DNA of 64,000 nt, from contig CM060731.1 of NCBI GenBank assembly GCA_030704615.1, positions 95,790,001-95,854,000 on the forward strand, in the 5' to 3' direction. Each line of letters starts with the position of its first letter. The first letter of the stretch is position 1. Positions 863 through 58,088 of this stretch are shown in pieces. The position numbers and the translations under genes were made by a program. The stretch is from Takakia lepidozioides (taxonomy: Eukaryota > Plantae > Bryophyta). The notes below the pieces were generated by a model. It saw only the letters and a program-made list of their open reading frames with translations, had not been told where the DNA came from and searched no databases.

Positions 863-1122
863 AACATCGTCTAATCTCTGTATTTGCGAGTTTAGCTGCA
901 TAACTAGGAAGGGAGTAGTCCTTCACCGGGCTCGTCATGAAGTCGGCCCTCGCAAAGAACGGGACATTCTTCCTGGCAGGAAGTGTAGACCTTACATGTT
1001 TCGACCCGGATCCTCCAATCCTGCATATAACAATCACCAACGAGACCAATGAGAACCACAGTCCGGATATGCGTTTGACAAAAAATCACACAGAAGGCTT
1101 TGCAAACTTACAATGTTTGCAC

Positions 1123-4100
1123 TCACTCGTATTCCGGGTTCTCCTCGGCATCAATGTCCACTGTCTCTTCCTCCGACTCCGACGAATCCGAGGAGTCTTT
1201 GACTTCGATGGGAGCCTTCACATTCCGTTGCAGCCCTTCCAGATGGGATCCCCAGACGCCTGTGTCCTCCTCGTAGGCAAAGAGGTGCCGGTCGGAAAAC
1301 CGCCCAGCCCACATTGAGGCACCTGTTACAATGCCATCCACACATTATGACATGGCCCTTCAGATGTTGCGAATGAAAGCATAACGAGAGTTTGCATAAA
1401 AGCATACAACAAGATTCTGCATACCTGTCCCACAGATGAGGTCGAGCATTGTGCCCTCCACGTCAGTGCATGTCTCCATAATTGTCTGAATGAAGGCAGG
1501 GCTCCAAGTGCGTGAATACCGCAGGGGTTCAGTTGAAGTGAGGCTATGAGGGAGAAGTTCCGTGGGAACGTTGTTGAACAGGACGTCGTAATCGATGGGG
1601 TCGGAGTTCGGGTCAACCAACAATCCCTCCTTCCGGAAAGCAAAGGTGGAGTTCTCATTCACAAAGCAGTATGCATCGAACTGCTTCGTCTGCATACACA
1701 GTGGGGAACGATTAGAAATCGAATGCGGCACCGCATTTCAAGACTCCTAAGAAAATGAAAGGACGAGTGCCAAGGTCGTAATTACCTTCTTCCCTTCCGA
1801 CCGAAGGCCCAATGTGTTGATGCACGTCCACTTCTTCTTCAGAATTGGGACGGCGCTCTTGCGGGTCCACTTCGCAATTCCTGTCTGCGTGTTTTTGCCT
1901 CTGCTCGCCAGGACAACCACACAGCCTCTGCCGTCCAACACCATGCGGGCGAGCCCGAATCCTTTCTTCCAAAAGTCCTCGGAGTACCTGTTCCAAGATG
2001 GCAAAGCTTGCAGTCCTTCCACAGGCTCTCCGTCTGGAATATCCAAGATGATCATATCGCAAGACCAATCGGTGGCATTTCTGCCCCTCCTGCAATCCTT
2101 GTCTGCACACACCCTCTCAAAGAACGAGACCATCTTCAGAAACCCGGGGGTGTCGGAAGGCTCTTCGGCAGCCGCCTTCTTCAGTGCTCTGCCCTTCAGA
2201 CCCTCCATGGTCTTCATGTATGCCAACTCGGCTGCCCGTCCATCCAAAGCCGCCAAGAAACTCTCATTCACACACTGGACTACTGTATCGGGATCCACTT
2301 TCGGCCTCTTCATTTCCACCAGCTCGAAAGGGTGCCCCCCCGGGGGGTTGAAGAGTGCCTTCTTTGCCGAGCCAGTTCTCGTCCCTCTCGTGACAACGGT
2401 GGGCACAGGGGATTTCGGCTGTGTCTCGGGGGGTGGGCTGGTTGCAAAGTCTCCATCGGAGTCCTCTTCCTCACCCTCTACTGCACTATCTGTTTCTGCT
2501 TCTTCGTTTTCTTGGGTGTCACAACTGCTGCTCCTTGCTGGCAAGTCCGCTTCTTCGACCCCTTCTGTTGAGCCTGCACAGCTGCATCCACCGTCTTCTG
2601 TGCCATCTCAGCTGCCTTTTTGGATTGTTCCAGAGCAGCAGCTTCCTTTGCCGACTCTGGCCGAGCAGGGACACGTCTTTCCTTTCTCTTCTCTTCTGCT
2701 TTCGCGTGCAGATCTTTCTCAGACTCGTCAACAATTCCGCCAAACATGTCCAGGTACCACGGGCATCCAACCAGATGCGCGGCATGCCATTGTTTCTGCA
2801 GCTCGGGTGTGTAGACACAGCTTGGGCCCGCCACGGTCCAAGCCATGAAGAACGGGGGCTCTTGAGCCAGGGCCCCTGTCTGAAGAAGCACGTATTTCAT
2901 ATACCTGCAGGGCAGTCAGCATGCGTGAGCAAAAGTTGAGACCAACGTACTCGCAGAGTGCAACCTAAACATAAAATGCGAATGCGGTGCCGCATTTCCC
3001 AGACAAACCTCATTACCAAGCTTTGCATACAAGGACAGCTGGGCTTCACCTGTAAACAATTCGCATTGCAGCTTTTCCCGCTCCCTCCTGATGTGTAAAC
3101 TCCACGCTCCTTCTTGCTGTCTGTAGCTCCCTGGCGAAGAGGTTGTCCTTGTAAGCACATCTGAAACGTGTCACGTAGTCTTCCAATGTCCGTGTTCCAT
3201 CCCATTTGACGTACAAGCCGAATGAATTTGTATGCATTACGATTTGCTCCTTCGCATTTGTCATTACCTGCGATTCCCACATGCATTGTCACGTAGTAGT
3301 TCAGGGAATTCATTTCAGAAAAGCAACTCTGGGGAAGTACCTTGAATTACCTGGAACCACCAAGTCATGCGGTTGAGCCACACATCCACTGCAGGGTCGG
3401 AAACTTCGAGTGGAAAAGACCACATTGTCCTTATACTCTCCGATGCATTCCAGATCGACAGCCACCGTGTCTGCCATTTCCGATCCAATGTCAGGAGCAG
3501 GAAGAAGAGTGGCTATTGCTAGGAAGGAGCTTCAGTGAATTGAAACATCACCTTCTCTTTCGCTTCAACACATGCCGTTGAGAGGTGATGCAGTTTCTCC
3601 AATTGCATGGTCGGCTGCATGGCCTGAGAATAGTGTTTTGCAATCTCGGGGATGAAGTCCTTTCCAAGTGCCGGATCTGCAATGGCCACCAGCTTCACAA
3701 GCTTTGACTTGTATTTCGTTCTGGACTTGACCCCGGCTTCCTTCAAGTGCTCAGTCAATGACTGCAACGTTTTGACCTGTCCCTCACTTTCCATGAAGAA
3801 GCGTTTGGCATGGGCCAAATCCAGCTTGATGTTTGACTGCCAACAAAAAACATGCAGAAGCGTTACATTTGATTCATGTGGAAAGATTACCGGAAATTGG
3901 GGAAGGATGAGCAGAGGGAAATGGAGGACGACTTACTTCGTATATCACCTCCACCATCCATCCATAGTGAGACGATACCATGTCCGGTCAGTTTTTGCCA
4001 CGGCTTTCTGAATGAGCTCGGGCTCCAGCATTTCCGCGAACATTGTGCGGATCAGTGAGACCAGTTTTCCTCACCCTGTACAGCATATGTGCCATGTGGG

Positions 4101-5201
4101 TATGCACATACGCATTTTCAGTGACCCTGCAAGGCACACTCTCCAGTTCAGTCCACGAAAGCACGGAAACAAAACAGATTGGAAACCGAAATGCGGCACC
4201 GCATTTCGAACGTGCTTGGGAGGGTATGATTATCTTACGAGTTGAGGTCCACCATGGCATTCTTGAGCAGGGAGGAGTCTGCCGCCTTCACCTTGAGGAT
4301 GACACACTCCACCATGTAATGCCAGCCAATGTGCTTGGCATGGTTCTGCTTGATGTACTCCCACCAGGCGAGAAGTCGGTGATTCCCGTCCCACACAAAG
4401 AACATTTTACCCGACATATGGCCGAAGTCGGGATCACCCTTCAGGGTTGCCTCGAATTCGTCGTTGCGAGTGTGCCAGTGGGGTATCCCATGTTGACAAT
4501 TCCTCCGCAGTGGGTCCACGAGATTCGCCGTCCTCATTCTCAAGGGAAACGTAGAAGGCTGGCAAACCTAGACAGTACCCTTCTCGAAATGCGAACTTGA
4601 GCTTATCCACATCTCCGGGAAGTGCCTGCCTGACGATGGGAAGGGAGACCATGCGACAGAGTGGGATTCGAAGAGTCCTCTGGAATACCCTGCTGCCCAG
4701 AACTCTGCCAATGCTACTATGTGTCTCCTCCAACATTGTATCCGCTGCACTTTGGAATCCCTCCGGAGACATTTCTGCTGGTGGCGGCAGGGGCTGAGCA
4801 GCTTGAGCATCCCCAACTGGAGCTGCACTCTGGGGAATCTTTGCGGACAATTGTGCAATTGCAGAGGCCTCCTCCGGGCCTTCAGTGGTCAGGTCTTCCT
4901 CAACTGTGGTCAGGTCTTGCTGAGAACGTTGAGAGGCAGCACCCTCCTCCGGTACCAGATTGACGGTCGATCCCATTGGCTTTGTTGCAGCAGGTTGGAA
5001 ATCAAGCAGGAACTGGGCTTCAGCTCGTGGAATCGGTTTTGCGGGAGACTGCTCCGCCTCCCCCCTGATTGCCTTGTGCTTCCTCATTCTTGCAGGTGAA
5101 GGTGTCTGCTGCAATTGAATCTGCTTCATTTGCCTGGGTGGGGGGGAAACGGCCTGGTCCGGTTCAGAGCTTGAACCAAGTTCATTCAATGGGTCATTCA
5201 A
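1123..5201 (-). pseudogene. Multi-exon gene: ParB/Sulfiredoxin-like domain fused to a C-terminal beta-class amino-(N4C/N6A) DNA methyltransferase-like domain (paralogue 1, frameshifted)
   Basis: IPLCRMV..VR..D.DKLK..F..GY and VWDGNHRLLAW (about 4680-4360); DMIILDIPDG (about 2055-2030) precedes SPAFIQTIMETCTDVEGTMLDLICGT|GASMWAG..RHLFAYEED (about 1500-1265); GT-AG introns at the same positions as in paralogue 24431-28260. Confidence 0.75.
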
Positions 5202-11608: not shown

Positions 11609-11639
11609 CAACAGTGAAAGGACTTAGTGAAATTTAAGG

Positions 11640-11765
11640 GCCTTTGGAGGATTGTTTGGAAGATATTTGAGGGCCCTTGGAGGAGTATTTGGAGGATCTT
11701 TGGGGTCCTTGGAGGAGTGTTTGGAGGATCTTTGGGGTCCTTGGAGGACCCTTCGAGGAGCTTTG
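11640..11765 (+). repeat. Short 11/33-bp tandem repeat
   Basis: TTTGGAGGATCTTTGGGGTCCTTGGAGGA repeated. Confidence 0.8.
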
Positions 11766-15322: not shown

Positions 15323-16290
15323 GGCATATGCCTTCTGGACTTGTTTGGCGGGATCAGCACTGGATTGGCTGCAGTACTGCAGGCAGGTGTACGAGTTTGA
15401 CGTTACCTGTATGTGGAGAGGGATGAGACTGCATGACGCGTCTCACTGCACCATGTTGCTCAGTTGGTACAGCAGTACCCTGATTTGTTGCCAGTGTCTG
15501 CAGTTCGTGGATACCAACAAGCCTTGCCAGCAGACATTTCGTTGTTGGGGGCGCAGGATTTGGAGCGGGTTGGCTCCATTGATCTGGTAGTGGCAGGTTG
15601 GCCCTGCCAAGGGCATTCATCAGCCGGGCATGGCAATGGATTGCGAGACTCGAGGACGGGTCTGTTTTGGGAGATGGTGCGGATTTTGCGCCACTTGCAG
15701 CTTCATCAAGCTGTATCTCCAGCATACATCTTGGAGAATGTGCCACTGATGGGTGATTCTCGGGCCAGGGTGATGGCCAGTGTGCATCAAGTCTGGTCAT
15801 GGCTTGGGTCAGCAGTGTTGCTGGATGCAGCAACAGTGGGGTCATGGGCTCATCGTCCACGGCTATGGTGGACTAACTTGATGCCACCCGCACTGCTCAA
15901 GCGTGCATTTGATGGGGTGCAGCGGCCAGCACACCTCACAGTGGATAGCATTTTGGACACAGGGAGGCAGTCTCAACGTGTGAGACACGATGACCATTCG
16001 CCTTTGGTAGTGGTCAACAGGGTGGGTCAACCACGAGCAGCATTACCTACACTGCTCAGCTTCCTAGGATCCCATGCTTTTCGGGATGGTGGACCTGGCC
16101 TCTTGTGGGATAGCCAGTTGCAACAATTAGTGGAGCCCAATGCTGACGAGCGCGAGCGGGCGATGGGTTTTACCACAGGTACCACGGCGGTGCCATCTCT
16201 TTCTGAGGCATCACCTCATCAGGTGTTGGGGCAAGCAATGGATCTCAATTGCTTGACCTGGATTATCAGCTTGGCTATGGCTGAGCAGCG
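15323..16290 (+). pseudogene. C5 cytosine DNA methyltransferase domain in frame within pol, with two in-frame TGA stops
   Basis: Motif I LDLFGGIS, IV AGWPCQG, VI YILENV, VIII AHRPRLWW, X LGQAM; stops at 15398 and 15434. Confidence 0.92.
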
Positions 16291-16702
16291 CAGAGTACGG
16301 AGTACACTTCCCTTCATGGTCTCCCTGCCTACCGAGACGGTATAGGTAGCGAGTGGGGGTGAGCAGGTGAGGACCACGAGGTGCAAGCCGCATCCATGGC
16401 ACACGTGGGAGGTGCTCGAGGTTCAGAAGGAGTTGGCAGCCAAGGCGGCGGTGATGGATCAGGTTGGGGATTTTTCTCGGATTGAGGAGGTCCTCAAGGA
16501 TGGGATGATGGGGCAGGATGAGACATTGTCACTGACAGAGGAGGCAGTGGTCACTGCTCAAGAGGTTGCAGCATAGCAACCACAGGACGCGTCTTCTACC
16601 TCTAAGCCTGCTGGACTCAAGGTTGCAGTCACGGAGGACAACTGGGAGCCTGATGTTGGACCTATAGTCACCGGAGGAGAGAGACGACGTATACGGCGGT
16701 TC

Positions 16703-18184
16703 TTGAGGGCTTACAGGAACTGCTTTGCCTTCAGTTTGAAGGACTTAGGAGCACTGAAGGGTCAAGAGATTCGCATTGAATTGGCTACTGACACGCCAAT
16801 CTTTCGGAGACCCTATAGATACAGTGACATGGAGAGGTCCTTGATTCAGATGAGAACTCAGGACCTTTGGGAGGCTGGTTTGGTGGAGCTATCTGGGGGA
16901 GAGTATGCTTCAGCCACAGTGATGCCAGCCAAGAAGGATGTCTTTGGCAATTGGACGGAGAGACGTATGTGCGGTGATTACCGGCCTGTAAATCGTCAGA
17001 CCAAGTCCGATAGGTATGCCATGCCAACACCAGAGGAGATCTTTGATGCCATTGGGCATGCCAAGGTCTTTAGCATGTTGGATTTACGATCCGGATATCA
17101 CCAGTTGCCGATCAAGGAGGCGGATAAGCAAAAGACGGCATTCTGGGGGATCAATGAGCACGGGAAGGATTGCCTATACCAGTGGCGGTTCTTACCATTT
17201 GGGCTTAAGAACGCTCCGGCAGAGTTTCAGAGAGTCATGGACAGGATTCTAGCAGGGGTGGAGTTTGCTCGGTGCTACATAGATGACATCATCATCTTTA
17301 GTGCTACGGTGGAAGAGCATGAGAGACACCTTCAGGGGGTATTTGAGCGCTTGAGGGCGCACGGATTGAAGTTACATCCGGGAAAGTGCAAGTTTTTCCA
17401 CAACCAGATTGAGTATCTGGGTCACATGATATATCCTGGAGGATTGGGGGTACAGCAGACTAAGGTAGAGTCCATTGCACAGGTTCCACGCCCCACGGAT
17501 ATGAGCCGAGTTCGAGCTTTCATGGGGTTAGCAAACTATATACGGTTTGTTAAGGGATTTAGTGCCATTGCAAAGGCTCTAACCAAGCTGACCAAGGTGG
17601 ACCAGGAGTGGCAGTGGGAAGATGAGCAAGAACAAGCTTTTCAAGAGCTCAAGGCGAGGTTGACCTCGGCGCCCATCTTGAGACGACCTATCAGGGGGCG
17701 TCCTTTTCAGCTACATACAGATTGGAGCATGCTGGGGCTTGGAGCGGTGCTCACACAGGTGGATGATGAGGGAAGAGAGTTCGTAGTGGCTTATGCTAGC
17801 CGCTCGAACAACGTTGCAGAGTCTAAGTATAGCTCATATGAGGGAGAATGCTTAGCTGCAGTGTGGGCCGTGGCACACTTCAGGTGCTATCTATACGGCA
17901 ATCTCTTCACCCTTGTCACGAATCACCAACCACTCAAGTGGTTGATGGAGTCAGACAAGCTTACGGGGAAGCTTGCACGGTGGGCACTCATCCTTCAAGA
18001 GTATGACTTTCAGGTGGTGCACCGACCGGGTTTGGTCAATCGCAATGCAGATGGGTTGAGTCGCAATCCATGCACGAGCCAGCAGGATGACACTGGAGCT
18101 CGGTGGCATGGTGAGACGGACGAGGAGATGGTGCCCGGATGGCATGCATCTGCATTTCTGTGTATCTTGGCAGCGGAAGGCTAG
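16703..18184 (+). pseudogene. Reverse transcriptase and RNase H
   Basis: CGDYRPVN, PFGLKNAP, YIDD, LHTDWS, AYASRSNN..E. Confidence 0.93.
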
Positions 18185-18202
18185 GTTGGACCTGCAACAG
18201 GG

Positions 18203-19372
18203 ATGACTGTAGATCAAGTGTCTGAGGACCCTGAGGCCAGCAATGAGCAAGGTGGCGCCAAATATATACATGAGGATTCAGTTGTGTTGGACTACCTCCG
18301 CACTGGAGACACTGCAGCCACTGTGACTGCCAAGGAGACGGATCGGATCCTACAACGAGCCAAGAGGTTCAAGTGGGAGGGGACACACCTGCTCCGAGTG
18401 TGGGAGGATGATCGAGTGAGGATTGTGCCTCACCCAACACAGCGGGCACGGTTAGTGCGGCATGCCCATGAGGAGTTGGGGCATTTTGGGGTGCGACGCA
18501 CTCATAGTCTACTGCAGGGGCAGTATTGGTGGCGTGGTATGCACACAGAGGTGCAACAATTTGTGGCTAGGTGCATGGTGTGTTACAGGGTGCGTGCTTC
18601 ATTCAACGCCCCTACTCCACAATTGCACCCTCTTCCGATCATGGGATTGGGCTACAGGTGGAGTCTTGACTTCGCAGGGCCGTTGCCACTGACCATGCGC
18701 CACAACAAGTACGTGTTGGTGATGGTGGAGCACTTCTCCAAGTGGATTGAATTGCTTCCATTGCCTGATAAGGCTAGTGAGGGAGCTGCGTATGCATTCT
18801 TGGATTGTGTGCTTAGCCGATTCGGTGCTCCAGCTGAGGTACTCACGGACCAAGGGAGAGAGTTCTTGGGGGAGTTTCAGGCTTTGTGTGACAAGGCCTT
18901 AATAGACCACCGCACCACTTCTCGGGATCATCCTGAGGCCGATGGCTTGGCAGAGAGAGTTGTTCAGACAGTAAAGAGGGGTTTGCGCAAGTATGGCTTG
19001 CAGAAGGGACACCTAGGAGATTGGGACCTTCAGTTACCCTGGTTAGCCATGGGCTACAGGTTTAGCAAGCAAGCATCACTTGCCTCCTTCTCACCATACT
19101 TTCTTCTCTTTGGCCGAGAGCCGGATTTGCCTACATCCATTCGCAGAGAAGCTGCTACAGTTCTTAACCTTGACGATCCGGACGTGTGGGCACGTGCATG
19201 TGAGCAGCGTGCAGAGTTGTTCAAGAAAGTCATGCCCATGGCTTTCGAGAACCTTGTCATTGCACAACATCGTGATACGTTGAGATATGCTACCATACGT
19301 GGTGGGGGCTATCGTCCTGGGGTTCGGAGATTCAACCAAGGGTTCGAGAGGTATTGCCCTCAGGAGTCCTGA
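18203..19372 (+). pseudogene. DDE integrase
   Basis: H-H-C-C zinc finger (HEELGH..CMVC), LDFAGP, TDQGREF, GLAER. Confidence 0.93.
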
Positions 19373-19638
19373 TCTTGGAGGGTCGGGATGGCATGATTTG
19401 GAAGGACCATGTGCGTAATTGCGCGCCATGTCACCTTCCAAATGTTGATGGAAGGGTTGACCCAAACCTGGCAGTGGTACCTGCAAGTTTGAGGTGCATG
19501 TTGTGTGGGTCTGCTAGAGGGGCAGCCACCATGCTGGTGTGTGATCAATGCTCTAGAGGTTGGCATATGGGATGCTTGACTCCACCTCTTGAGATGGTTC
19601 CTGATGGGGATTGGTTATGTCCGCATTGCATTGGATAG
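19354..19638 (+). pseudogene. Integrase C-terminal extension with PHD finger
   Basis: CMLC..MLVCDQCSRGWHMGCLTPPL..VPDGDWLCPHC (C4HC3). Confidence 0.9.
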
Positions 19639-19897
19639 TGGAAGTGGATACAACCATGGAAGGCTAACAATAAATGCAAGGCCAAGCTACTAGGAGACCA
19701 ACACACGAGATCCTGACTCAAGTTCACAGATTGCAAGACGGCAACTAACGATGGGGTTGCTCTTGTACCCGGCCTCTTGGTCTATAGAGTTTGAGTACAA
19801 TAGGGACAGTGATAGAGGACTTAGTACGGCTGTGGCTATTACATCTTGTAGCTATCTGGAGTTAGAGGGACCTAACCACCAGCTAGGGGGGCGATTC

Positions 19898-19980
19898 TGA
19901 TATAGCTTTCTAGGATTGTGTGCTTAGATTGTGTGGTGGACAGCGATGTATGTTGTGGCACGATGCTTAGGTGCACGACA
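19898..19980 (+). repeat. Repeat B1 (83 bp), preceded by PPT-like AGGGGGGCGA
   Basis: Matches 20407-20489 with 2 mismatches. Confidence 0.93.
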
Positions 19981-19982
19981 GC

Positions 19983-20403
19983 TGTCATGGTTTTAGTCAT
20001 GGTTATCTAGAATTACCTACTTCTAGTTAACTAGGACATTTTAGATATTTATATTTATATTTTGTGTGTTGGGACTTCATTTGGTCTCACATGCCAAGTG
20101 AGGTGTCGAGCCTCACTTGAGACATGGAGATAGGTTTTCCCCTTGTGAGTGTTGAGGAGGCTCATCTTCTTGTAGTTGAGCCTCCATGAGCTTCTCTCAC
20201 CTCCATAGCTCTAGGTATTGAGAGAGTGTGTGTTGAGGGCTTTGTAGGGTGGATTCCTTTAGCAAAGGTGCCCTTGGCTTGACTTAGTTTATGTGATAGA
20301 GTGGATTTCACTTGGAAGGACTAGGGCTTGTTCTTCATGTGATTGTTTCATGCTTTGAGAGCTTTCATTGTCTTCTACTTCTCTCATTTCTCATCTCTTA
20401 TCA
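19983..20403 (+). repeat. Repeat A2 (internal copy of the 5' terminus)
   Basis: Matches 9488-9908. Confidence 0.95.
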
Positions 20404-20406
20404 TTG

Positions 20407-20489
20407 TGGTATAGCTTTCTAGGATTGTGTGCTTAGATTGTGTGGTGGACAGCGATGTATGTTGTGGCACGATGCTTAGGTGCACAACA
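20407..20489 (+). repeat. Terminal repeat B2
   Basis: Matches 19898-19980; ends in CA, followed by the TSD. Confidence 0.93.
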
Positions 20490-20739
20490 TGTATTTGGAG
20501 GTTTGCTATTTCATGAGCATGAGCGGCATGAGCGGCATGAGCAGAGTAGTAACACTATCGGTTTTCATGAGCAGAAGTACAAATTTCGAAAATAAAAAAC
20601 AATAAAAAACAATAATTTAATGCAATGTGTCAGAAAAAACAAATATATTATTCGGCCCCTTGAAGGGAAAATTGCAGTTTTGACAGTTGTGCTCATGATA
20701 TTTCGTCTTCCGCTCATGCCAATTCCCAGCGACATGTGC

Positions 20740-23660
20740 AAATATGGCGCCGAATTTCGCGGTAATAGGGTCCGTAACCTGAAAAAACGGCGACGTATTT
20801 CGCGGCAATAGGTCTCTCTGGCGAAAAATGATGCCGAATTCCGCGGCTATAGGTCCCCTCATGACAGGTAATTCGGCGCCATTTTTCCAGTGCATGTTCG
20901 GACTTAGCCAGTTTTCGGCGCAAAATAGGGAAATTCGGCGCCATTTTTCCAGACACTGTACCAGTGCATGTTGGGACTTAGCCAGTTTTCGGCCCAAAAA
21001 AGAGAAATTCGGCGCCATTTTTCCAGACACGGTACGAGTGCATGTTGGGACTTAGCCAGTTTTCGGCCCCAAAAAGAGAAATTCGGCGCCATTTTCCCAA
21101 ACACAGGTACCAGTGCATGTTGGGACTTAGCGAGTTTTCGGCCCCAAAAAGAGAAATTCGGCGCCATTTTTCCAGAAATGGCCCCACAACTGCTTCTGTT
21201 GGATCTCAGTTTGAATGGAATATTGTTGAACCTTGTCTCCGGAATGCGGCCCCTCGTCTTTGCGCAATAACTGCCAACGGTATGCAGTCAGAAAGTGGGG
21301 GGCCGTCCGGATGATGACGGCTGAAGGGGAGAAGCCGGCACCGTGCCGTCACATTACTACCCCCGAATGGAAATTCGGCACCCAATATCCAACAGAGGAA
21401 GCCCGGATTAAGTCGCCTCGGGCGCAGAGGCCGGAGTGTGTGCGACAGAGAACATCCCCTGGATGGAGATTCGGCGCCGAATTTCCATCCGGGCCCCCCC
21501 AAAGGGAGTCGTGTCGGGGGGTCAGGCCGAAAACTGGACGGCATAAAAACATCCCCAGATGGAAAAACGGCGCCGAATTTCCATCCGGGGCGGTTCGGAT
21601 GCAGTCGGGGAGGGGGGAGTGGCCTGCACTTGGCCGTCACATTTCAACCCCCGGACGGAAATTCGGCACCGAATATCGAACAGGGGACGCCCGGATGAAG
21701 TCGCCTCGGGCGCAGAGGCCGACAAGTGTGCGACAGAGAACATCCCCTGGATGGAGATTCGGCGCCGAATTTCCATCCGGGTCCCCCCCAAAGGAAGTCT
21801 TGTCGGGGGGTCAGACCGAAAACTGGCCGACATAAAAACCTCCCCAGATGGGAAAACGGCGCCGAATTTCAATTCGGGGCCATTCCAATGCAGTCGGGAA
21901 GAAGGGAGAGGTCGGCACCTGGCCGTCATATTTCAACCCCCGGGACGGAAATTCGGCACCGAATATCCAACAGAGCGGCGGAGAGGCGGCACCTCTCCGA
22001 CAGAGACCATCCCCCGGATGGAAATTCGGCGCCGAATTTCCATCCAGCAGGTAAGTGGAATCCCGGATGGATGGAGATTCGGCGCCGAATTTCCATCCTG
22101 CAGGTAATTCGAATACCGGATGGATGGAAATTCGGCGCCGAATTTCCATCCAGCAGGTAAGTGGAATCCCGGATGGATGGAAATTCGGCGCCGAATTTCC
22201 ATCCTGCAGGTAATTGATATCCCGGATGGATGGAAATTCGGCGCCGAATTTCCATCCAGCAGGTAAGTGGAATCCCGGATGGATGGAGATTCGGCGCCAA
22301 ATTTCCATTGATCCGGGATTCCACTTACCGGATCAATGGAAATTCGGTGCCGAATTTCCATCTAGCAGGTAAGTCGGATCGGTGGCGTATGGATATTCGG
22401 CGCCGAATTTCCATTCGCCATGTATTTCATCGCTCAGAATTACCTTCCTGCAGGTAATTCCCAGATGAGAATTACCTTCGTGCAGGTAATTTCCAGATGA
22501 GAATTACCTTCGTGCAGGTAATTCCAATCGATGCCGGTAGGATGTTAATTCCTCGTCCAGAATTACCTGCACGAAGGTAATTCTGATCGACGAATTACCT
22601 GCAGGAAGGTAATTCTCATCTGGGAATTACCTGCACGAAGGTAATTCCTCGCTCAGAAATACTTGGCGAATGGAAATTCGGCGTCGAATATCCATACGGC
22701 ACCGATCCGACTTACCTGCTGGATGGAAATTCGGCGCCGAATTTCCATTCATCCGGGATTCGAATCACCTGCTGGACGGAAATTCGGCGCCGAATTTCCA
22801 TTCATCCGGTATTCGAATTACCTGCAGGATGGAAATTTGGCGCCGAATTTTCATTTATCCGGGATTCCACTTACCTGCAGGATGGAAATTCGGCACCGAA
22901 TTACCTGCGTGAGGGAAATTCGGCGCGCCGCCCTACCTTCGCGGATGGAAATTCGGCGCCGGATTTCCATCCGAGCGCTTCCGAATTACCTGCTTGAGGG
23001 AAATTTCCAGCACGCCCTACCTGGCTGGATGGAAATTCGGCGCCGGATTTCCATCCGCGCGCGCTTCCGAATTACCTGCTTCAGGGAAATTTCCAGCGCC
23101 GCACTACCTGGTTGGATGGAAATTCGGCGCCGGATTTCCATCCGAGCGCTTCCGAATTACCTGCTTGAGGGAAATTTCCAGCGCCGCCCTACCGGGCTGG
23201 ATGGAAATTCGGCGCCGGATTTCCATCCGAGCGCTTCCGAATTACCTGCTTGAGGGAAATTTCCAGCGCCGCCCTACCGGGCTGGATGGAAATTCGGCGC
23301 CGGATTTCCATCCGAGCGCTTCCGAATTATCTGCGTGAGGGAAATTTCCAGCGCCGCCCTACCTGGCTGGATGGAAATTCGGCGCCGGATTTCCATCCGC
23401 GCGCTTCCGAATTACCTGCGTGAGGGAAATTTCCAGCGCCGCCCTACCTGGCTGGATGGAAATTTGTCGCCGGATTTCCATCCGCGTGCTTCCGAATTAC
23501 CTGCGTGAGGGAAATTTCCAGCGCCGCCCTTCCTCCGCGGATGGAAATTTGGCGCCGGATATCCATCCTGCTGCGCTCCGAATTACCTGCAGGATGGAAA
23601 TCCGGCGCCGGAATTCCATCGTGCAGCGCTCCGAATTACCTCTACGTTGGAAATTCCGGG
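20740..23660. repeat. Composite array of more than 30 copies of the palindrome GAAATTCGGCGCCGAATTTC (sub-arrays with 74, 96, 53 and 85-bp periods)
   Basis: Read directly; the perfect 30-bp form GGATGGAAATTCGGCGCCGAATTTCCATCC occurs at e.g. 22016-22045. Confidence 0.95.
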
Positions 23661-24430
23661 ACTGTTTACGTCGATTTTCATCCGACGTGGAGGGCTTCAT
23701 CCGACATTTAATTGCGTAGTTGGGCAATAAATGTCGACGGCCGTCGGTTATTATTCGGGCTGGCGACGCATGGCTTCCTGGACACGTACCCTAAATCTCA
23801 TGCTAAACTTGGCTTAACATGGTATTCCAGGCATGTACCCCAAAAAAAGAGATCTTTTTGGCTGGGACTTATGCCGCCTGAAGGGCGTGGCTCTCCTGAG
23901 AGAGACCTCACATCCAGACCGCGGCGGAAGTTGAAAGCTCTGTACTACGGACGACGGCCAATCTCTCGCATGGCCAAACTGAAGCTCCAGCAGGAGATTC
24001 CAGTGTCTTGCTCACAACCTGCGCCAACTGAAGCCGAGTACTCTCAGGCAAGCCACTTCTGCTTTCGGTTTGTTCGATTTATTTTTTGCTTTCGCTTTGT
24101 TACCTCGCTTTGTTTTTGCATCTTCATCCTGGCTTTGCTGTATGAGTGAACTTTAGATAGTTGAGTGAACCTTAGATTGTTTGCAATGCGTGTGCAAATC
24201 CGGCAGCTCTGGAGAAGGCTGCTTGTGCATGTCATTCTTAGGCAATGGTTGCATTTGTTTTCATTGTTGTTGCATGGCTCTCCATACTTCCTAAACTTGT
24301 TATGTTTTCATTTTTGCTACATGATTGTTGCTATGGTGGTTGCGCTGCTCGTTGCGATGCTGCTTTTTGCACCGATGTTGGTTTTCACGATTTTTGTCAA
24401 TGACAGAGTGACGACGAGCCCGGCACGCTG

Positions 24431-27400
24431 GTGGTATCATCGACAGCTCCAACTCATCGCATGTTTGAATCGCCCAACTTGGTGCGAGAGGGCAAACTTA
24501 AACCTTTTGTTGGTGGACGGGAGGACTTGCAACGAGATTACGACAGAGTAGGCATTGGGGAGGTTGGTGCAGGCGGCATGGCAGGTGAAGGGCGTGAGGA
24601 CATGAGGACAGCAGATCCGGCAATGGAGGTTGTTCATGCACATGCAGTAGGGCCCGCCCACGCAAAGAAAAAGAAGAAAGCTAAGCACATGCAATCCCCG
24701 GCGAGAGAGCAGTCACGGGCTGCGGAGGGGGGAGTGAGCAGTGCGCGCGAGGGTGTCAGTTCGCCTCAATCAAAGGTGGTCGTCCTGGAGGGCTCCCCTG
24801 CTGCTAGCCCTAGTAAGAAACAGAAAGCCCGTGAGAGGGCAAAAGAGAGGGCAAAAGAACAGACGAGACAGAATGCTAGCCAGGAGGAAAGACAAAAGGC
24901 AGCTGAAGAGGCCAGGGGTGCCCAAATGACAGATGCCAATGTAAGCGAGGGACCCACAGAGACGGTGGATCCCTACAAGACACCACAGAGAGGCAGTAGC
25001 ACACCGGTTAGACCATCGCGGGCAAGAGCAGCCCCCGCAATTACCCATACGGTGGAGAGTGGAGGAGAGGAAAGAACACCTGAAAGAGCACGGATTGTGC
25101 AAGTTCGAGGTGAAGCCAGGGAGAGGGCAGTAGAGACGACGAGAGTGCTGGAGGTGGTTTCGCAGGTGGCTGACCCTGTTGAGGAGGACGACATGGAGGT
25201 TTCTGACCAGGATGACATCCTCCCGGACATCCCCAGGCCCCAAACCCGGAGCATACAGGCTGGATTTGGCGGTCCTGGTGGGCTGCCGGAAAACCCCTCT
25301 GCAGCAGACGTCATGTCTGAGGCGGATATGAAGTTGGCCGCTGCCAAGATGTTGGAGGCAACCCACAGCAACATTGGCAGGGTGCTGGGGGGCATGGTGT
25401 ACCCGGCCAAGCTTCGAATTCCCCTTTGCCGCTTGGTGTCATTGCAGGTGGTGAGACCTACCCTCCCAGGCGATATCGACAAGCTGAAATTCTCTTTCCG
25501 GGATGGATATCGAATGGGGTCTGCCGCCTTTTACGTTTCCATTGAGAACGACCACGGAGCTTCCCGTGCCCACACTTCCGATGAGGTGGACAAATGGGGT
25601 CCCCATTGGCAAACGCGAAATGAGGAGTTCCAGAGATCGATTGCTAGTGATCCTCTTTTCCAGCACATGTCCGGTAAGATGTTCTACGTGTGGGATGGCA
25701 ATCATCGCCTCCTGGCATGGATGGAGCACATTGCCCAAGCCCACCCCAACGATCTCGATTGGCATTTCGCCGTCGATTGTGTTGTGCTGAAGGTTGCGGG
25801 GCCCAAAGATCGCAGTCTTCTCAAAGCTGCAATGGCCGACATCAACTCGTAAGCTACAACCCCTCTCGCTTTTGGACTTTGAATTTGGAAGTCATTTCAT
25901 TGCGAATCCTCATATATGATGAAAATTCCCATTTCAGTATTGTTTGATGGAAATGTGGCACTGCAGGGTGACTGAGAATGCCTTCATTGCCACCAACTTG
26001 TCCCATATGCTCTTCCGAGTGAAGGATGTCGGGAAGCAGGGGGTGCAAGAGTTTGCCAATTCCCTCAGTGCCGACCTCCTGCGCAAGTCGGAGGCAAAGG
26101 CAGACAGAACGTGGTATAGGCTGAGCGTCGACGCCATGGTGGACTACATATTTCGGGTAAAGCTCCTGACAGTTTTGTTGAGCTAATCTGTCTCTCCTCC
26201 CCCAATAGAAGAAATTGTGTTGAGCAGGATCTCTAATCTTATGTGCGCATTCTTGACAGACGAAAATACAGCAGGATTTGGCACATGCGCGGAGGTTCTA
26301 CATGGAGTCAGAGGAGAAGAATCCAACCCTCCCGGAACTCGAATCGTATGTCAAAGCTGCGGAGGTGAGGGCCCGCATAAAGTACAAGTCGTGGATGGTA
26401 AAGTACGTGGCCATAGCTGATCCCGCCCTTGGTGCCGATTTTCTGGTGGAGGTGGGGAAGCACTACTCTCGCGCTCTAAAGCCCATGATGACATTGGAGA
26501 AGCTCCATCGTCTAGCCACATCCTGTGTGGATGCAACAGAAAAGGTGATACATTCTTAACAAAATTGTGGTGGCAACAACTCCTTTTTGTGGTGTTTGGC
26601 GCTTACGAATATGCTGGGTGGTTGGACAGACCCGGTGGCTCCAAATCTGGAATGGTTCCCAAAGTACCAGGGACATGTGGAGCTTCCCCAAACCGGACAA
26701 ACTCTCTGACCCCACATTCGACATGTGGATGAACCGCATGACATGGTGGTTTCAGGTACTTCCCCACGCTTCGTTTGGGGCTTCTACTCTAGTAGGGGGT
26801 GGATTCATTGTATTTTTTGAGGAAAGCGATCTGATGGACAATCTCCACAGGTGACGACAAATGCGCAAGAGCAGCTGGACACACAAGCACATCAGTTCAA
26901 GATGGAGATATCTCCTGCAGCAGAGAGCCTACGTGACTATGTGACGAGGTACTTTCTGCTCTACAAAACCAACCTACTCTTTCGGGAGATAGCAGATGCT
27001 CGCCGGAGCCACGAGTTCACCGACCAGCCGAACGCGGACAAAGCAGCAATGCGCCTTCTGTACAGGTACATACGCGCTGCCTTTCTTTCAAGTCCTGGCA
27101 TTTCAGGATGTTAGAGGCCTCAAGTGGTGTTAGGGAAAATGGCGCCGAATTTCCAGTCAGGGCTCCGAAAATGGCTAGGTCCCTAGACTGGCTGGCCCGG
27201 AACTGGAAATACGGCGCCATTTTCCAGTTCCAGGCCCTATTGCCGTTCAGGGACTTAGCCATTTTCGGCCTAAGTCCCTAGACTGGCTGGCCCTGAAGTG
27301 GAAATTCGGCGCCATATTCCAGTTTTAGGCCCTATTGCCGTTCAGGGACTTAGCCATTTTCGGCCTAAGTCCCTAGAGTGGCTGGCCCGGAACTGGAAAT

Positions 27401-28260
27401 TCGGCGTCGTTTTCCAGTTCTAGGCCCTATTGCCGTCCAGGGACTTAGCCATTTTCGGGCTAAGTCCCTAGACTGGCTGGCCCTGAACTGGAAATTCGGC
27501 GCCATTTTCCAGTTCCAGGCCCTATTGCCGTTCAGGGACTTAGCCATTTTCGGGCTAAGTCCCTAGACTGGCTGGCCCTGAAGTGGAAATTCGGCGCCAT
27601 ATTCCAGTTTTAGGCCCTATTGCCGTTCAGGGACTTAGCCATTTTCGGGCTAAGTCCCTAGACTGGGTGGCCCTGAACTGGAAATTTGGCGCCATTTTCC
27701 AGTTCCAGGCCGTATTGCCGTTCAGGGACTTAGCCATTTTCGGGCTAAGTCCCTAGATTGGGTGGCCCTGAACTGGAAATTCGGCGCCATATTCCAGTTG
27801 TAGGCCCTATTGCCGTTCAGGGACTTAGCCATTTTCGGACCTCATTGTGTTTTTCATGAATGCAGGTACTGTAAGTTCTCCCTTTTGGAGAAAGGTCATC
27901 TGTCTTTCGAGCCACCATTCTTCCTGGCATGGAGGAACCCTGGGGCTGACTCCATGTACACTGACGATATTGTGAAGGAGTGGCATCTGGAACATTTGCG
28001 TGATTGCCCTTGGTATGTGGACCTTCCGCCCGGCTCGCTCGACCCATCCGAGTTTCAATTGAAGCTGGATGCTGAATTCCGACGAAACCGGGCTCCGCTG
28101 CCTCCGTTGGGTGCAAAAGAGGCAAAAGCGCTTGCGAACTCCAGGAAAGCGGCAGAGCTTGCTCAGGCAGGAATTCAGGAGAAATTGCATGAGAAGAGTA
28201 AAGGTCAAAGGAAAAGGACAAGGAAACAGGTGACTGTAGTAACACCCAAAAAGAAGAAAA
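24431..28260 (+). CDS. Multi-exon ParB/Srx-like domain gene (paralogue 2); 3'-truncated, no methyltransferase domain visible
   Basis: VWDGNHRLLAW; exons approximately 24407-25848, 25967-26156, 26260-26544, 26630-26755, 26852-27065, 27866-28260, all homologous to paralogue 1; possible upstream exon from about 23871. Confidence 0.78.
27130..27838. repeat. Intronic 95-bp tandem repeat (about 7 units), each with two hairpins and a GAAATTCGGCGCC site
   Basis: GGGACTTAGCC recurs at 27250, 27345, 27440, 27535, 27630, 27725, 27820. Confidence 0.95.
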
Positions 28261-28347
28261 CCATCCAAAATATGGACTTTTGTACTAACAAATGCATATG
28301 TGTCATGTTTGGAACCACCACATTGCATGTCTGTTTGTAATGCCAAG

Positions 28348-29365
28348 TGTTAGAGGACTGTAGGGGACTTAGACACTTATACGGGATCTGTAGGGTACCC
28401 TTAAATTTTGCACAGACTGAGACCAACAGGAGCCTTAGGGGTGACAGCAGCGCACTGTAGAGGGGGGTTACACAGTCGTCACAGCCCACACAGCCGTCAC
28501 AGTCGTCACAGCCAACACAGCCGTCACAGTCCACACAGCCAACACAGCCAACACAGCCCGTCACAGTCGTCACAGTCGTCACAGCCAACACAGCCGACAC
28601 AGCCAACACAGCCCGGCACAGCCACACAGCCAGTCACAGCCCGACACAGCCAAACACAGTCGCACAGCCAGTCACAGCCCGTCACAGTTTCACACAGCCA
28701 GTCACAGCTTGACACAGCTGTCACGATCATAGGGAACGAAGAGTAGGACAGAGAACGACTGTGGGGAACAACACCTGCGAAGGGAACATGTTAGTTCACA
28801 GACGACGGTTAGTGAGGGAAACGGTTAGAACTGCGGATAGGAAGATAAAAGGGAAAACGGGGAATGAAGAGGGGATATAGATTTTTATCATTCTTCAGAG
28901 GAGGACTTCTTAGTCAGGCTGGAGCGGAGATCGGAAGCAAAAGATGGAGAGCACGGTGAAGGAGGAAAGAGGATTAGTAGATGCTTGTTATATGCAAAGC
29001 TGTAGTGATATTGTAGAGCAGATTAGAGACATAATGGCTTCGGCCTGATACCTGATAAATCATAATCTGATACTTATACGATACAATCACACTGTGTAGA
29101 GAGATCTGAGTGAAGCTGTGGATTGAATGGATGAGTGAAGGAAACCGATAGATTGATGAAGCAAACTGATATTTAATTATCAATGGTAAGGTAGCTAAGA
29201 TGAATGCGGAAAGGGAAACAAATAGGAAACACCCCCATGATACACTAGCTGTAGGTCATGACTGATTGTTCTGCGCGGGCTGAGTACTTAGAGATTTCCA
29301 ACTCTTCTATCTTGGAGTTTCCGCCTCGGATAGCGAAGGGATGGATGAGTAAAAGCCGCGCGACA
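28348..29365 (+). repeat. 5' LTR, containing an ACACAGCC/GTCACA-rich minisatellite
   Basis: Direct repeat of 39732-40791. Confidence 0.95.
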
Positions 29366-29953
29366 TTTGGCGACCATACTGGGGACCTGGGACATGAACA
29401 ACCAGATGTGACAGGCATCTGGTGGGATCATGGTGGTTGGACCATTAAAGAATTTGAAGTGAATCAAATTCCCTGTGGAACGAAGGAAGAAAGATTGTCC
29501 AAACGATTCTTTCAAAGGTTCTTGGAATTGCCAGACGGTTGTAAAGAAAATATTCTTAAACGAGTGCATGATGCTGATCCAGAATGGGGTCTGGAGAAAG
29601 GAGTGATAAAGATTTATCAGGTAGCCTGTAGAGGAAGAGCACGTTGGTTACCAACATTGGTTTATGTGATAGCATTGCTATCCATTAAACGAGTAGAGTT
29701 TGAAGGCTGGGAAGAAAGAAAGGTGAATGTTTATACTCATATGCATGAAGAGCTTGTACTGGTAAAGAATTGGATTCCAAAGGATATTTTGTGGATCAAA
29801 CTCACACCAAGAACAGCTTTTCAGACTTGTTTGCCATATGGTTATATGGTAACGGAGACTTCAAGTATAGCCAAGGGTGCATTGAAGCTTGAAAGAAACC
29901 CAGGCATATACGAGAGATATTACAGAAGAGAGTTTTGGTTATTGCCACATTAA
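29258..29953 (+). CDS. Extra ORF upstream of gag, function unknown
   Basis: 231-aa ORF; same sequence present in copy 2 at 47029-47360. Confidence 0.5.
   Translation: MTDCSARAEYLEISNSSILEFPPRIAKGWMSKSRATFGDHTGDLGHEQPDVTGIWWDHGGWTIKEFEVNQIPCGTKEERLSKRFFQRFLELPDGCKENILKRVHDADPEWGLEKGVIKIYQVACRGRARWLPTLVYVIALLSIKRVEFEGWEERKVNVYTHMHEELVLVKNWIPKDILWIKLTPRTAFQTCLPYGYMVTETSSIAKGALKLERNPGIYERYYRREFWLLPH
29368..29385 (+). promoter_or_regulatory. Primer-binding site, probably tRNA-Arg
   Basis: TGGCGACCATACTGGGGA begins 2 nt after the LTR end. Confidence 0.7.
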
Positions 29954-29974
29954 AATAAATGAAAGACATGGGAC

Positions 29975-30985
29975 ATGAGTGATGAAAGAGAAGCTAGACG
30001 ACAGAGATATTCAGCAAAAAAAGAAAGCTATCTGAAAGCTAATTATCCATATCTTTGGGAGAGAGGAATAGACATAGGGGAATCATCTGGACCTCTCACA
30101 CCATCAAGATCAAAGAGTGCATCACCTATACCGGAAGAACTAGAGTTGGATGCCACTCCTTCTGTTTCTTTGCAAGAAAGATTAAGGGAATTGGTACAGG
30201 AAGAAGATCAATCACGAGGTGAAAGATCTGAGGTACATCCTTGGATAAAAGACTTGACAGAAATCTTTGATAAGAGTTGGCATGGAACACCAAAAGCAGG
30301 AACTCCAGTTTCTGAAGCAGAAGATGAAGAAGGAGAAGAGGATGTGGCAGAGCCAACGGAGAGTTCAGACTCTCCAACACCATTACAGTTGAGTTACATG
30401 AGTGAAGAAGAAACCCAAGGGCAGAACTTGGAGGATGAAAACAAAGAGAAGAAATTAGAAGAGGAAGAATATGAAGAAGTAGACCCAACAGCTGAGGTTG
30501 AGACTACAACCAGGACATCCCAACCCGTTGGACCTGGATCAAGTGGAGCACTTGGATCACAGGCCAACGAAGGTGTCGGCTCAGGGGGATCAGGCGGGCT
30601 GCCTGGATCTGGCTCTGGGGGGACAGGGAGTGTGGGAAGTAGTGCAACTGAAGCTGGGAATACTGTGAATATCGTGGGACCAGAAGCAAGGAGTGCTCAA
30701 GGGCCACCACTTGGTGGAAGATCCACCACAAAAACAACAGGTCCAGAAGGACCAGCACCAGCAAGGGTGCCAGCACCTGTCAGTGGGCAGAAGGTAGGGC
30801 CACAGATGGCGTTACAACCAACACGGGCAAAACCACCCTTTCCAGTATATTCAGGGAAAGGGGATCCCGATGTACACATTAGCCAATTTGAGCACATGTG
30901 TATAGTGAACAATGAGAATGGCGATGATGCCAAGATGAGACTGTTTCCTTGTTCACTTATCAACAGAGCTATGTTACTATTGTAA
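29975..30985 (+). pseudogene. Gag, internally deleted
   Basis: YSGKGDPDVHISQFE..KMRLFPCSL, then a jump; about 900 bp present in copy 2 (48362-49260) is missing. Confidence 0.88.
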
Positions 30986-31040
30986 TCAGCCAGGACATCG
31001 CAAGGCAGCCTGTTCATTCTGGATAAGACACCAGAATGAG

Positions 31041-35420: not shown

Positions 35421-35460
35421 CACAGTATGACACAGCCTGTCACAGCTCAACACAGCCTAC
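35215..35460 (+). repeat. 30-bp tandem repeat at the 3' end of pol
   Basis: ACACAGCCTATCACAGCCC units; also at 53510-53810. Confidence 0.9.
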
Positions 35461-39693: not shown

Positions 39694-39731
39694 ACCGTGA
39701 GGACACGGCTTTTTGAGGGGGGAAGGGGTAA

Positions 39732-58050: not shown

Positions 58051-58088
58051 ACCGTGAGGACACGGCTTTTTGAGGGGGGAAGGGGTAA

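What the first reader, a model, noticed from the sequence alone, without database searches (positions are those of the whole stretch)
20740..23660. parS/iteron-like array with helical phasing directly upstream of the ParB gene
Seen: more than 30 copies of one palindrome sit in different repeat units with periods of 74 bp (20930, 21004, 21078), 96 bp (21370-21948, as a 288-bp trimer), 53 bp (22021, 22074, 22127, 22180...) and 85 bp (23119, 23204, 23289, 23374); the intronic array is 95 bp. These equal about 7.0, 9.1, 5.0, 8.1 and 9.0 turns at 10.5 bp per turn. Inference: independent amplifications all kept the sites on one helical face, as expected for a cooperative protein-loading platform. 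A ParB-like clamp could load here and spread a mark, or block silencing, along the element. The array also stays very CpG-rich amid decayed retroelements.
Basis: partly seen in the sequence, partly recalled or inferred. Interest (0 to 1): 0.88.

Follow-up and report, generated by a model that had tools for sequence, protein, structure and literature searches.

The report
Helically phased ParB sites, plant transposon
A repeated element in a plant genome, likely a jumping gene, carries 44 copies of one palindrome spaced almost always at whole DNA turns in front of and inside a gene whose product is predicted to have the fold of bacterial ParB proteins; the palindromes are likely landing sites for that protein, which would then mark or shield the element's own DNA.

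Summary
Confirmed. There are 36 palindrome copies upstream and 8 in intron 6 of an open, spliced 969-codon gene whose domain is predicted to have the ParB/Srx fold. All neighbour spacings under 100 bp form a ladder (43, 53, 62-63, 72-75, 84-87, 95-97; best pitch 10.57 bp; P 0.002 to 2e-5). The units are related, but they differ by whole-turn indels (21, 22, 32 bp).

The same 12-bp core is enriched at 56 related gene loci from other plant DNA (18 versus 0-2 expected). Spacings there lean to whole turns (P about 0.006; 0.002-0.08 across variants), with exceptions; motif-free repeats do not. A paralog in the window has its own variant palindrome in three introns.

The element looks high-copy. This copy is cut at 28265, before the N4/N6-methyltransferase tail seen in the paralog and in Riccia relatives. 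Its transposase is unassigned.

Best reading: a sopC-like same-face platform for the element's own ParB-methyltransferase. Binding, nucleotide use, sliding and anti-silencing are untested. ParB genes beside inverted-repeat arrays are published for red-algal transposons, and this scan noted similar elements on other DNA. I found the land-plant core and the phasing in no paper searched.

The parts
20498..20549 (.). Probable left end of the element (possible terminal inverted repeat of about 45-50 bp)
   Evidence: Contigs of runs X5 and X7 (two studies) both stop at 20498, and contigs of X1, X5 and X7 leave the window sequence at 20542. No second copy in the window. Inferred.
20738..21173 (.). 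First 7 palindrome sites, including the 74-bp array (7.0 turns)
21369..21968 (.). 96-bp units (9.1 turns) in a 288-bp trimer; spacers only about 62% alike, yet length kept within 1 bp
22020..22905 (.). Two 53-bp arrays (5.0 turns) facing each other as one mirror centred at 22542
   Evidence: (I5, I6)
22436..22647 (.). Six copies of a second palindrome in 32-bp units (3.0 turns), 47, 79 and 111 bp (half-integer turns) from the nearest first-type site
22947..23617 (.). 85-bp array (53 + 32; 8.0 turns) and last 53-bp step
23871..28344 (+). ParB-fold gene 2: 7 predicted exons (first intron GC-AG), open for 969 codons; family sequence ends at about codon 945
   Evidence: exon borders inferred from sequence and from the paralog, no RNA evidence
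25400..25848 (+). ParB/Srx-fold domain
   Evidence: model pLDDT 93.6; all 8 chains with Z >= 5 among 48,161 are ParB/Srx-type, best KorB Z 8.0, rmsd 2.4, 90 aligned; Foldseek top rows PadC, Noc, Srx, ParB, none at E <= 0.001
27133..27838 (.). Intron-6 array: 8 sites, 95-bp unit (74 + 21; 9.0 turns)
28265..28347 (.). Junction: foreign sequence replaces the gene's end, so this copy lacks the methyltransferase tail
   Evidence: 28265-28314 is a 90% copy of 40848-40896; one X7 contig leaves the window at 28265 and X1 depth at 28296 is about 1,000
1000..5200 (-). Paralog gene 1 (45-67% identical per exon, frameshifted, same intron layout) with a C-terminal N4/N6-methyltransferase-like region; bounds approximate
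   Evidence: the region at 1795-2088 matches relatives' tails, and the Riccia ones hit PF01555 just under its cut-off
1719..1740 (.). Variant palindrome in a late intron of gene 1
2978..2999 (.). Variant palindrome in intron 6 of gene 1, the intron that holds the 95-bp array in gene 2
4187..4208 (.). Variant palindrome in intron 2 of gene 1

Best explanation
The array is likely a same-face binding platform for the ParB-fold protein encoded just behind it, in a repeat family that is likely a DNA transposon of a seed-free plant. Shown: the palindromes, their whole-turn spacing, the open spliced gene, and the enrichment of the same core at related genes elsewhere. Predicted: the ParB/Srx fold. 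Inferred: a dimer reads each palindrome; neighbouring dimers touch or bend the DNA on one face, as proposed for SopB on the 43-bp sopC repeats; and selection for that contact lets only whole-turn unit lengths and indels survive amplification. Also inferred: full-length family members carry the N4/N6-methyltransferase tail, so the loaded protein would keep the promoter and introns free of host CG methylation and possibly write its own mark, as VANC does for VANDAL elements by other means. My odds by step: the protein binds the palindrome 0.8; phasing is selected for protein geometry 0.7; the outcome is anti-silencing or self-marking 0.55; the protein closes as a nucleotide-dependent sliding clamp 0.3.
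For: Phasing in the window: P 0.0016 to 2e-5; best pitch 10.57, and mean cosine only 0.05 at 10.2. Related units differ by 21, 22 and 32 bp, and diverged 96-bp spacers keep their length.

Core TTYGGYRCCRAA: 18 exact hits at 56 non-redundant loci (415 kb) against 0-2 in five random sets, densest within 2 kb upstream and 2-3 kb downstream of the domain start. It is absent from the window's retroelements and from the SWIM gene.

Spacings at other loci with a matrix trained on window sites only: 127, 127, 75, 106, 105.5, 51, 51, 110; mean cosine 0.61, P = 0.006 at 10.6. The two 127-bp units share no blastn match. 52 motif-free tandem periods show no phase (P = 0.97).

The arms outside the core differ between families but tend to stay symmetric (15 of 28 pairs, P = 0.004). 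The paralog has its own variant in three introns.

CpG transitions between array units: 6 of 135 sites, against 45 of 272 in retroelement pairs (P = 0.0004).

Precedents: sopC (PMC3177203), PAG3, VANC.
Against: No binding, methylation or expression data. No helix-turn-helix could be placed in a relative's model.

The outside test weakens with choices: P = 0.018 at 10.5, 0.019-0.063 with 110 kept apart, 0.03-0.04 with units of 124, 93 and 118 added, and 0.076 in the first four-value test. 51, 93, 110 and 124 bp are off phase. The matrix threshold was chosen after seeing the null counts (76 hits against 18-33).

Only 8 of 56 loci have an exact core, and two loci supply 12 of the 18 hits. Gaps of 217 and 281 bp break phase. 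A sliding clamp has no obvious need for phased sites.

Two of five retroelement control pairs also lack a CpG excess, and purifying selection on sites would lower CpG change without hypomethylation. The gene body's CpG ratio is ordinary. This copy lacks the methyltransferase, and no transposase is assigned to the family.
Confidence: 0.6

Rival explanations
1. The phased palindromes are bound by another element protein (the transposase or a second accessory factor), as with subterminal repeats, and the ParB-fold gene is only a neighbour.
For: The array starts about 240 bp from the probable left end. The family's transposase is unknown. A SWIM-finger, Mutator-like gene lies head-to-head upstream in 4 of 16 loci with at least 7 kb held upstream. 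Transposases themselves can bind and activate their elements (preprint 10.64898/2026.08.24.746577, passages).
Against: Sites also lie inside introns of both paralogs, 6.6 kb from the end in gene 2. Site density peaks around the ParB domain in other loci, and the window's SWIM gene has none. The variant tracks the paralog.
Confidence: 0.15
2. Neutral amplification: palindromes seed fold-back and slippage events, a few founder lengths happened to be whole turns, and all others derive from them.
For: Units are related. 22020-22905 is one large mirror that folds as a hairpin. Only about three periods are independent (P = 0.018 at 10.5). Off-phase units exist in other loci.
Against: The indels between related units are themselves whole turns. 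The six non-amplified spacings under 100 bp are phased too (P = 0.003). Unrelated units in two other loci both measure 127 bp. Motif-free repeats are not phased. The core is conserved where its surroundings are not.
Confidence: 0.12
3. The spacing serves intrinsic DNA shape: phased A/T tracts bend the DNA or set nucleosomes around the promoter, with no specific protein partner.
For: Each window site has AAATT/AATTT arms. The array lies where a promoter is expected and is CpG-rich.
Against: The part conserved across loci is the GC-rich core, while the arms vary. The pitch is 10.57, with no signal at 10.2; that nucleosomal DNA averages nearer 10.2 is recalled knowledge.
Confidence: 0.08
4. The mirror and palindromes act as RNA or single-stranded DNA hairpins (small-RNA source or cruciform).
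For: Very stable fold, z = -28.8; symmetric arms.
Against: Any palindrome array folds this way. Hairpins give no reason for whole-turn spacing. No Rfam match. CpG retention is not what a silencing-RNA target would be expected to show (inference).
Confidence: 0.05

Closest known systems
PAG3 of red-algal Plavaka transposons (Petroll et al., bioRxiv 10.1101/2025.02.11.637652; passages read; supplements not seen)
   Same: Transposon accessory gene with an N-terminal ParB-like domain; tandem arrays of inverted repeats next to it; proposed to bind and modify its own element.
   Different: PAG3 carries a 2OG-oxygenase, whereas this family carries an N4/N6-methyltransferase-like tail. Host here is a land plant. 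The preprint's main text does not contain 'helical' or 'period'; unit lengths may stand in the unseen supplements.
ParB plus N4/N6-methyltransferase accessory gene of Sola1-1_Ec32, Ectocarpus (PMC12477816; passages)
   Same: Same two-domain layout as gene 1 and Riccia P0154; proposed self-binding and self-modification.
   Different: No array is described in the passages I saw. No Sola transposase is identified here. This copy is cut before the methyltransferase.
F-plasmid sopC/SopB (PMC3177203; passages)
   Same: Palindromic ParB sites in tandem direct repeats at whole helical turns (43 bp, about 4 turns), read by the authors as a same-face platform.
   Different: One fixed period there, a ladder of 4 to 9 turns here. 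No ParA was found. Eukaryotic, spliced gene; no segregation role expected.
VANDAL/VANC anti-silencing, Arabidopsis (PMC5735166; passages)
   Same: [quoted passage not shown]
   Different: VANC motifs are short and not palindromic. The protein here has a predicted ParB/Srx fold. Demethylation is shown for VANC and only hinted at here.

Membership tests
Bacterial ParB/parS (ParABS) | ParB/Srx-fold N-terminal domain | tested here: met
   Predicted model; (best Z 8.0; all 8 rows with Z >= 5 are of this fold family)
Bacterial ParB/parS (ParABS) | CTP-binding and hydrolysis residues (C. crescentus R60, R103/R104, N136; Q58, E102, E135 per PMC8367383 passages) | tested here: inconclusive
   R48 (51 of 56), G129-N130-H131-R132 (51, 56, 53, 49 of 56) and N178 (48 of 53) are conserved. 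Equivalents are assigned by motif position only. N and H stand where ParB has E and R, and no conserved Q or E is evident.
Bacterial ParB/parS (ParABS) | Helix-turn-helix DNA-binding domain after the N-terminal domain | tested here: inconclusive
   Riccia relative P0088: all-helical region; KorB aligns over residues 114-448 at Z 7.1, rmsd 6.6, 180 aligned, tied with unrelated helical bundles
Bacterial ParB/parS (ParABS) | Palindromic site near the gene, in whole-turn repeats as in sopC | tested here: met
Bacterial ParB/parS (ParABS) | Cognate ParA ATPase gene | tested here: inconclusive
   No ParA family among the window ORFs scanned (a selection of the 168 ORFs listed); the element is incomplete here
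Bacterial ParB/parS (ParABS) | CTP-dependent clamp closure and sliding | not testable with these tools
   needs biochemistry
Plasmid iterons (features recalled) | Non-palindromic direct repeats | tested here: not met
   the repeated site is a palindrome
Plasmid iterons (features recalled) | Adjacent Rep initiator gene | tested here: not met
   the adjacent gene has a predicted ParB/Srx fold; no Rep family
PAG3-type transposon accessory gene | ParB-like domain with adjacent tandem inverted repeats | tested here: met
PAG3-type transposon accessory gene | C-terminal 2OG-oxygenase | tested here: not met
   relatives and the paralog have a methyltransferase-like tail instead
ParB-N4/N6-methyltransferase transposon accessory genes | Fusion to an N4/N6-methyltransferase domain | tested here: inconclusive
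   Present in Riccia P0154 (PF01555 E 5e-5, under the cut-off) and by similarity in gene 1; absent from this copy, which is cut at 28265
ParB-N4/N6-methyltransferase transposon accessory genes | Carried by a DNA transposon with transposase, terminal repeats and target duplication | tested here: inconclusive
   High contig depth and one probable end. The neighbouring SWIM gene has about 50-fold lower depth in X1. No right end or target duplication found.
VANDAL/VANC | [quoted passage not shown] | tested here: met
   (sites only upstream and in introns)
VANDAL/VANC | VANC-family protein | not tested
   no direct comparison made
VANDAL/VANC | Sequence-specific loss of DNA methylation | tested here: inconclusive
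   only indirect: CpG ratio and substitution pattern

The most novel reading that the evidence does not exclude
Transposons of mosses, liverworts and ferns use a captured bacterial-type ParB as a nucleotide-switched sliding clamp. It is loaded cooperatively on helically phased parS-like arrays and carries its fused methyltransferase along the element, writing adenine or N4-cytosine methylation that keeps host silencing off. This would be a eukaryotic load-and-spread epigenetic writer with a conserved core and family-specific arms.
Probability: 0.28. Interest if true: 0.92.

Novelty: new variant of a known kind. Interest (0 to 1): 0.66.

Why it matters
How transposons recognise and protect kilobases of their own DNA is understood in few systems, with VANC the best studied. 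Here a candidate protein, an exact 12-bp core, family-specific arms and a spacing rule are all in hand. That makes the published guess about ParB-like accessory proteins directly testable with short oligonucleotides. If the protein loads and slides, it would extend CTP-type clamp biology to eukaryotic chromatin and could give a sequence-targeted epigenetic writer. The phasing is also sequence evidence that these arrays are under selection.

Tried and rejected
No whole genome is held, so the genome-wide spacing test could not be run.

The domain has no Pfam, NCBIfam or PDB sequence match. The word-based protein search among longer proteins found nothing; the full HMMER search found 606 relatives.

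Dimer prediction for a Riccia relative returned no answer (score 0.00, alignment not used). It is no evidence either way.

No RNA holder was listed, which says nothing about expression.

No relatives and no motif were found in viral contigs. Prokaryotic genomes gave 5 isolated exact matches to the 20-bp motif, each a single site with no family gene nearby.

I first took the SWIM-finger gene at 40995-44700 as the element's transposase. I rejected it as a constant part: X1 depth is 61-552 there against 5,600-29,600 in 29 of 30 bins over array and gene (one bin 555). The tool warns that summed contig depth is no copy number. Its 'Mutator-like' label is my recall from the SWIM finger and was not confirmed.

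The SET-like ORF (8686-9390) is probably outside the element, if 20498 is the end; this was not tested by depth.

No terminal inverted repeat partner was found in the window. The third array (45.7-46.5 kb) has another palindrome and is not phased. No Rfam match.

Rows dropped: 24 of 80 loci as near-duplicates; five spacing classes over 140 bp; and the 127-bp unit of L008, left out of both test and control because it has no scored site and I took it to be a sister of the L009 unit.

Literature searches that found no paper on phased ParB sites in eukaryotic transposons or on this land-plant family. The library lacks most subscription journals; Iyer et al. 2011, cited in PMC12477816, was not seen.
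Full report
Setting. The window is eukaryotic: it has spliceosomal introns, several Ty3/gypsy elements and a 500-N gap. No whole genome is held. Named relatives of the gene come from the liverwort Riccia sorocarpa and the ferns Adiantum nelumboides and A. capillus-veneris (8 of the 10 proteins looked up), so the host is likely a seed-free plant. Unchecked notes of this scan call it a likely moss.

The observation. A 22-bp palindrome occurs 36 times between 20738 and 23617 and 8 times between 27133 and 27796, at up to 6 mismatches. Random sequence of the same dinucleotide make-up gives 0.07 on average. The periods 74, 96, 53, 85 and 95 are right. All 40 neighbour spacings under 100 bp lie on a ladder: 43, 53, 62-63, 72-75, 84-87, 95-97. 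None lies at a half turn. The remaining 2 of 42 (217, 281) are half-integer at 10.6. The best pitch is 10.57 bp, and the signal vanishes at 10.2.

Is the phasing more than chance? With random periods of 40-100 bp and the pitch fixed at 10.5, P is 0.0016 for the five listed periods, 0.003 for the six non-amplified spacings alone, 2e-5 for ten classes and 0.0007 with the two long gaps added. The units are related, though. The 95-bp unit is the 74-bp unit plus 21 bp; the 85-bp unit is the 53-bp unit plus 32 bp, and the 63-bp step is 85 minus 22. Counting only 53, 74 and 96 gives P = 0.018. Counting the indels of 21 and 32 bp as the independent events gives 0.0006. The three 96-bp subunits are about 62% alike yet keep their length within 1 bp. 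The 32-bp piece also exists as its own array of a second palindrome, set at half-integer distances (47, 79, 111 bp) from the first type, around a mirror centred at 22542.

The gene. A seven-exon model from 23871 is open for 969 codons; the exon borders are inferred. Sequence libraries do not name it, but HMMER finds 606 relatives at E <= 0.001. The model of the exon-2 domain (pLDDT 93.6) matches ParB/Srx folds: all 8 chains with Z >= 5 among 48,161 are KorB, PadC, sulfiredoxins, SerK, a ParB-N domain, Atu1540 or SbnI, and the next row drops to 2.9. The pocket keeps an early arginine, G-N-H-R and a late asparagine. These sit where CTP-binding residues of C. crescentus ParB are expected by motif position (PMC8367383, passages), but the residues tied to hydrolysis are not evidently kept. 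Nucleotide binding is plausible; CTP clamp behaviour is open. A DNA-binding helix-turn-helix could not be placed in a relative's model.

A cut copy and its paralog. A second, frameshifted paralog lies at about 1000-5200 on the minus strand. It continues into a region similar to relatives' C-terminal tails, which in Riccia hit the N6/N4-methyltransferase family just under its cut-off. The Atlas's nearest named clusters for Riccia P0154 are methyltransferases, several fused to ParB, from mostly viral members, at scores of 0.82-0.83, a lead only. Gene 2 lacks this tail. At 28265 it joins sequence that repeats 40848-40896, one X7 contig departs at the same base, and X1 depth falls to about 1,000 by 28296. 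I infer that intact members are ParB-methyltransferase fusions. The paralog has three copies of a variant palindrome, each inside an intron, one of them in the intron that holds the 95-bp array in gene 2.

What carries it. Run X1 lays 60,307 contigs on 20400-28400, with summed depth of 5,600-29,600 in 29 of 30 bins, and two very small runs also assemble parts of it. Array and gene therefore look like one abundant, diverged family; the tool warns that this depth is no copy number. Contigs of two studies stop at 20498, a probable end. The SWIM-finger gene at 40995-44700 has X1 depth of 61-552 and is not a constant part. Similar genes lie head-to-head upstream of ParB-fold genes in 4 of 16 long loci. 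The transposase and superfamily remain unassigned, and 'DNA transposon' is an inference.

Test on other DNA. A metagenome scan gave 80 loci, 56 after removing near-duplicates. They are 28-45% identical in the domain and 29-48% GC, so they are other families and probably other species. The core TTYGGYRCCRAA has 18 exact hits against 0-2 in five random sets, densest just upstream and 2-3 kb downstream of the domain start. The hits come from 8 loci, 12 of them from two. In L024 the sites repeat at 127-128 and 75 bp, and in L009 at 126-129 bp; these two 127-bp units share no blastn match. With a matrix trained only on window sites and the pitch fixed from the window, the eight spacing classes up to 140 bp give P = 0.006 at 10.6 and 0.018 at 10.5. 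Merging probable homologues gives 0.002; keeping 110 apart gives 0.019; adding motif-bearing units of 124, 93 and 118 gives 0.028. An earlier four-value test gave 0.076. Units of 51, 93, 110 and 124 bp are off phase, all in AT-rich loci with decayed sites. The 52 motif-free tandem periods in the same loci show no phase (P = 0.97). The arms beside the core differ between families but tend to stay symmetric. The rule is real in the window and likely, not proven, elsewhere.

Methylation. The CpG ratio is 1.18, or 0.99 without the sites, against about 0.4 in three gypsy elements, 0.85 in the chromodomain one and 0.66 in the gene. Neighbouring upstream units differ by a CpG transition at 6 of 135 sites; five retroelement pairs pooled do so at 45 of 272 (P = 0.0004), although two of the five show no excess. 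This fits a locally unmethylated array, or selection on sites. It gives no sign of spreading into the gene.

Mechanism. The simplest account is that dimers of the element's ParB-fold protein bind each palindrome and contact each other on one face of the helix, which filters unit lengths as the array amplifies. The authors of PMC3177203 read the 43-bp sopC period the same way (passages). The loaded protein would keep promoter and introns open and, in intact copies, bring its methyltransferase to the element. I put this at 0.6 overall and the sliding-clamp version at about 0.3. Rivals are another element protein (0.15), neutral amplification (0.12), DNA shape (0.08) and hairpins (0.05).

Comparison and novelty. 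ParB-like accessory genes beside tandem inverted repeats are described for red-algal Plavaka elements (passages; supplements not seen, and they may give unit lengths). A ParB-methyltransferase accessory gene is described for Ectocarpus (passages). PMC4738411 mentions ParB-type HTH fusions to methyltransferases in chlorophytes and chytrids (passages). VANC shows the logic of amplified self-target motifs (passages). This scan has noted similar elements on other DNA, one with four-turn spacing; these are unchecked notes and not independent support. My searches found no paper on this land-plant family, its conserved core or whole-turn phasing in a eukaryotic ParB-type array. Verdict: a real feature and a new variant of a known kind; it works like sopC in geometry and probably like VANC in purpose, and is a member of neither family. 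Interest 0.66.

Noticed in passing
window 9488-20489: Gypsy element carrying a C5 DNA methyltransferase, with a 4-bp target duplication and permuted end repeats: 9488-9908 recurs at 19983-20403, and 19894-19980 recurs at 20403-20489. The scan has noted this family several times.
   Followed up: partly
window 8686-9390 (+): Intronless ORF with a weak SET-domain match (E 0.0026, under cut-off), just left of the gypsy insertion. Red-algal elements carry SET accessory genes, but linkage here was not tested.
   Followed up: partly
window 40995-44700 (-): Decayed gene with a Cys-rich start and a C-terminal SWIM finger, probably a Mutator-like transposase; relatives lie head-to-head with ParB-fold genes in L027, L030, L046 and L050.
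   Followed up: partly
window 45728-46501: Third array, of a different GC-rich palindrome, upstream of the SWIM gene and running into the N gap; spacings 78, 68, 132, 128, 75, 207, 72, not consistently phased.
   Followed up: partly
window 22436-22647: Second palindrome in 32-bp units, on the opposite helical face from the first type; it could be a site for a second protein.
   Followed up: partly
window 23770-23817 (+): Short upstream ORF of 15 codons before the inferred start of gene 2.
   Followed up: no
window 866-5587: The paralog segment interrupts a chromodomain gypsy element; about 670 bp present in the sister copy at 60970-61643 are missing at the junction.
   Followed up: no
window 28348-40791 and 47029-59033: Two 96%-identical gypsy copies, each with a long extra ORF of no Pfam family (36803-39121, 54274-58050) and CACAGC-rich repeats in the end repeats.
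   Followed up: no
run X8 contig laid at window 22011-22044: A contig from another organism label holds the extended palindrome with different flanks, a hint that the site occurs in a further species.
   Followed up: no
L014 12483-12585, L080 9579-9630: AT-rich loci carry the core in 51-bp units (4.8 turns at 10.6), with stepwise CpG decay of the site.
   Followed up: partly
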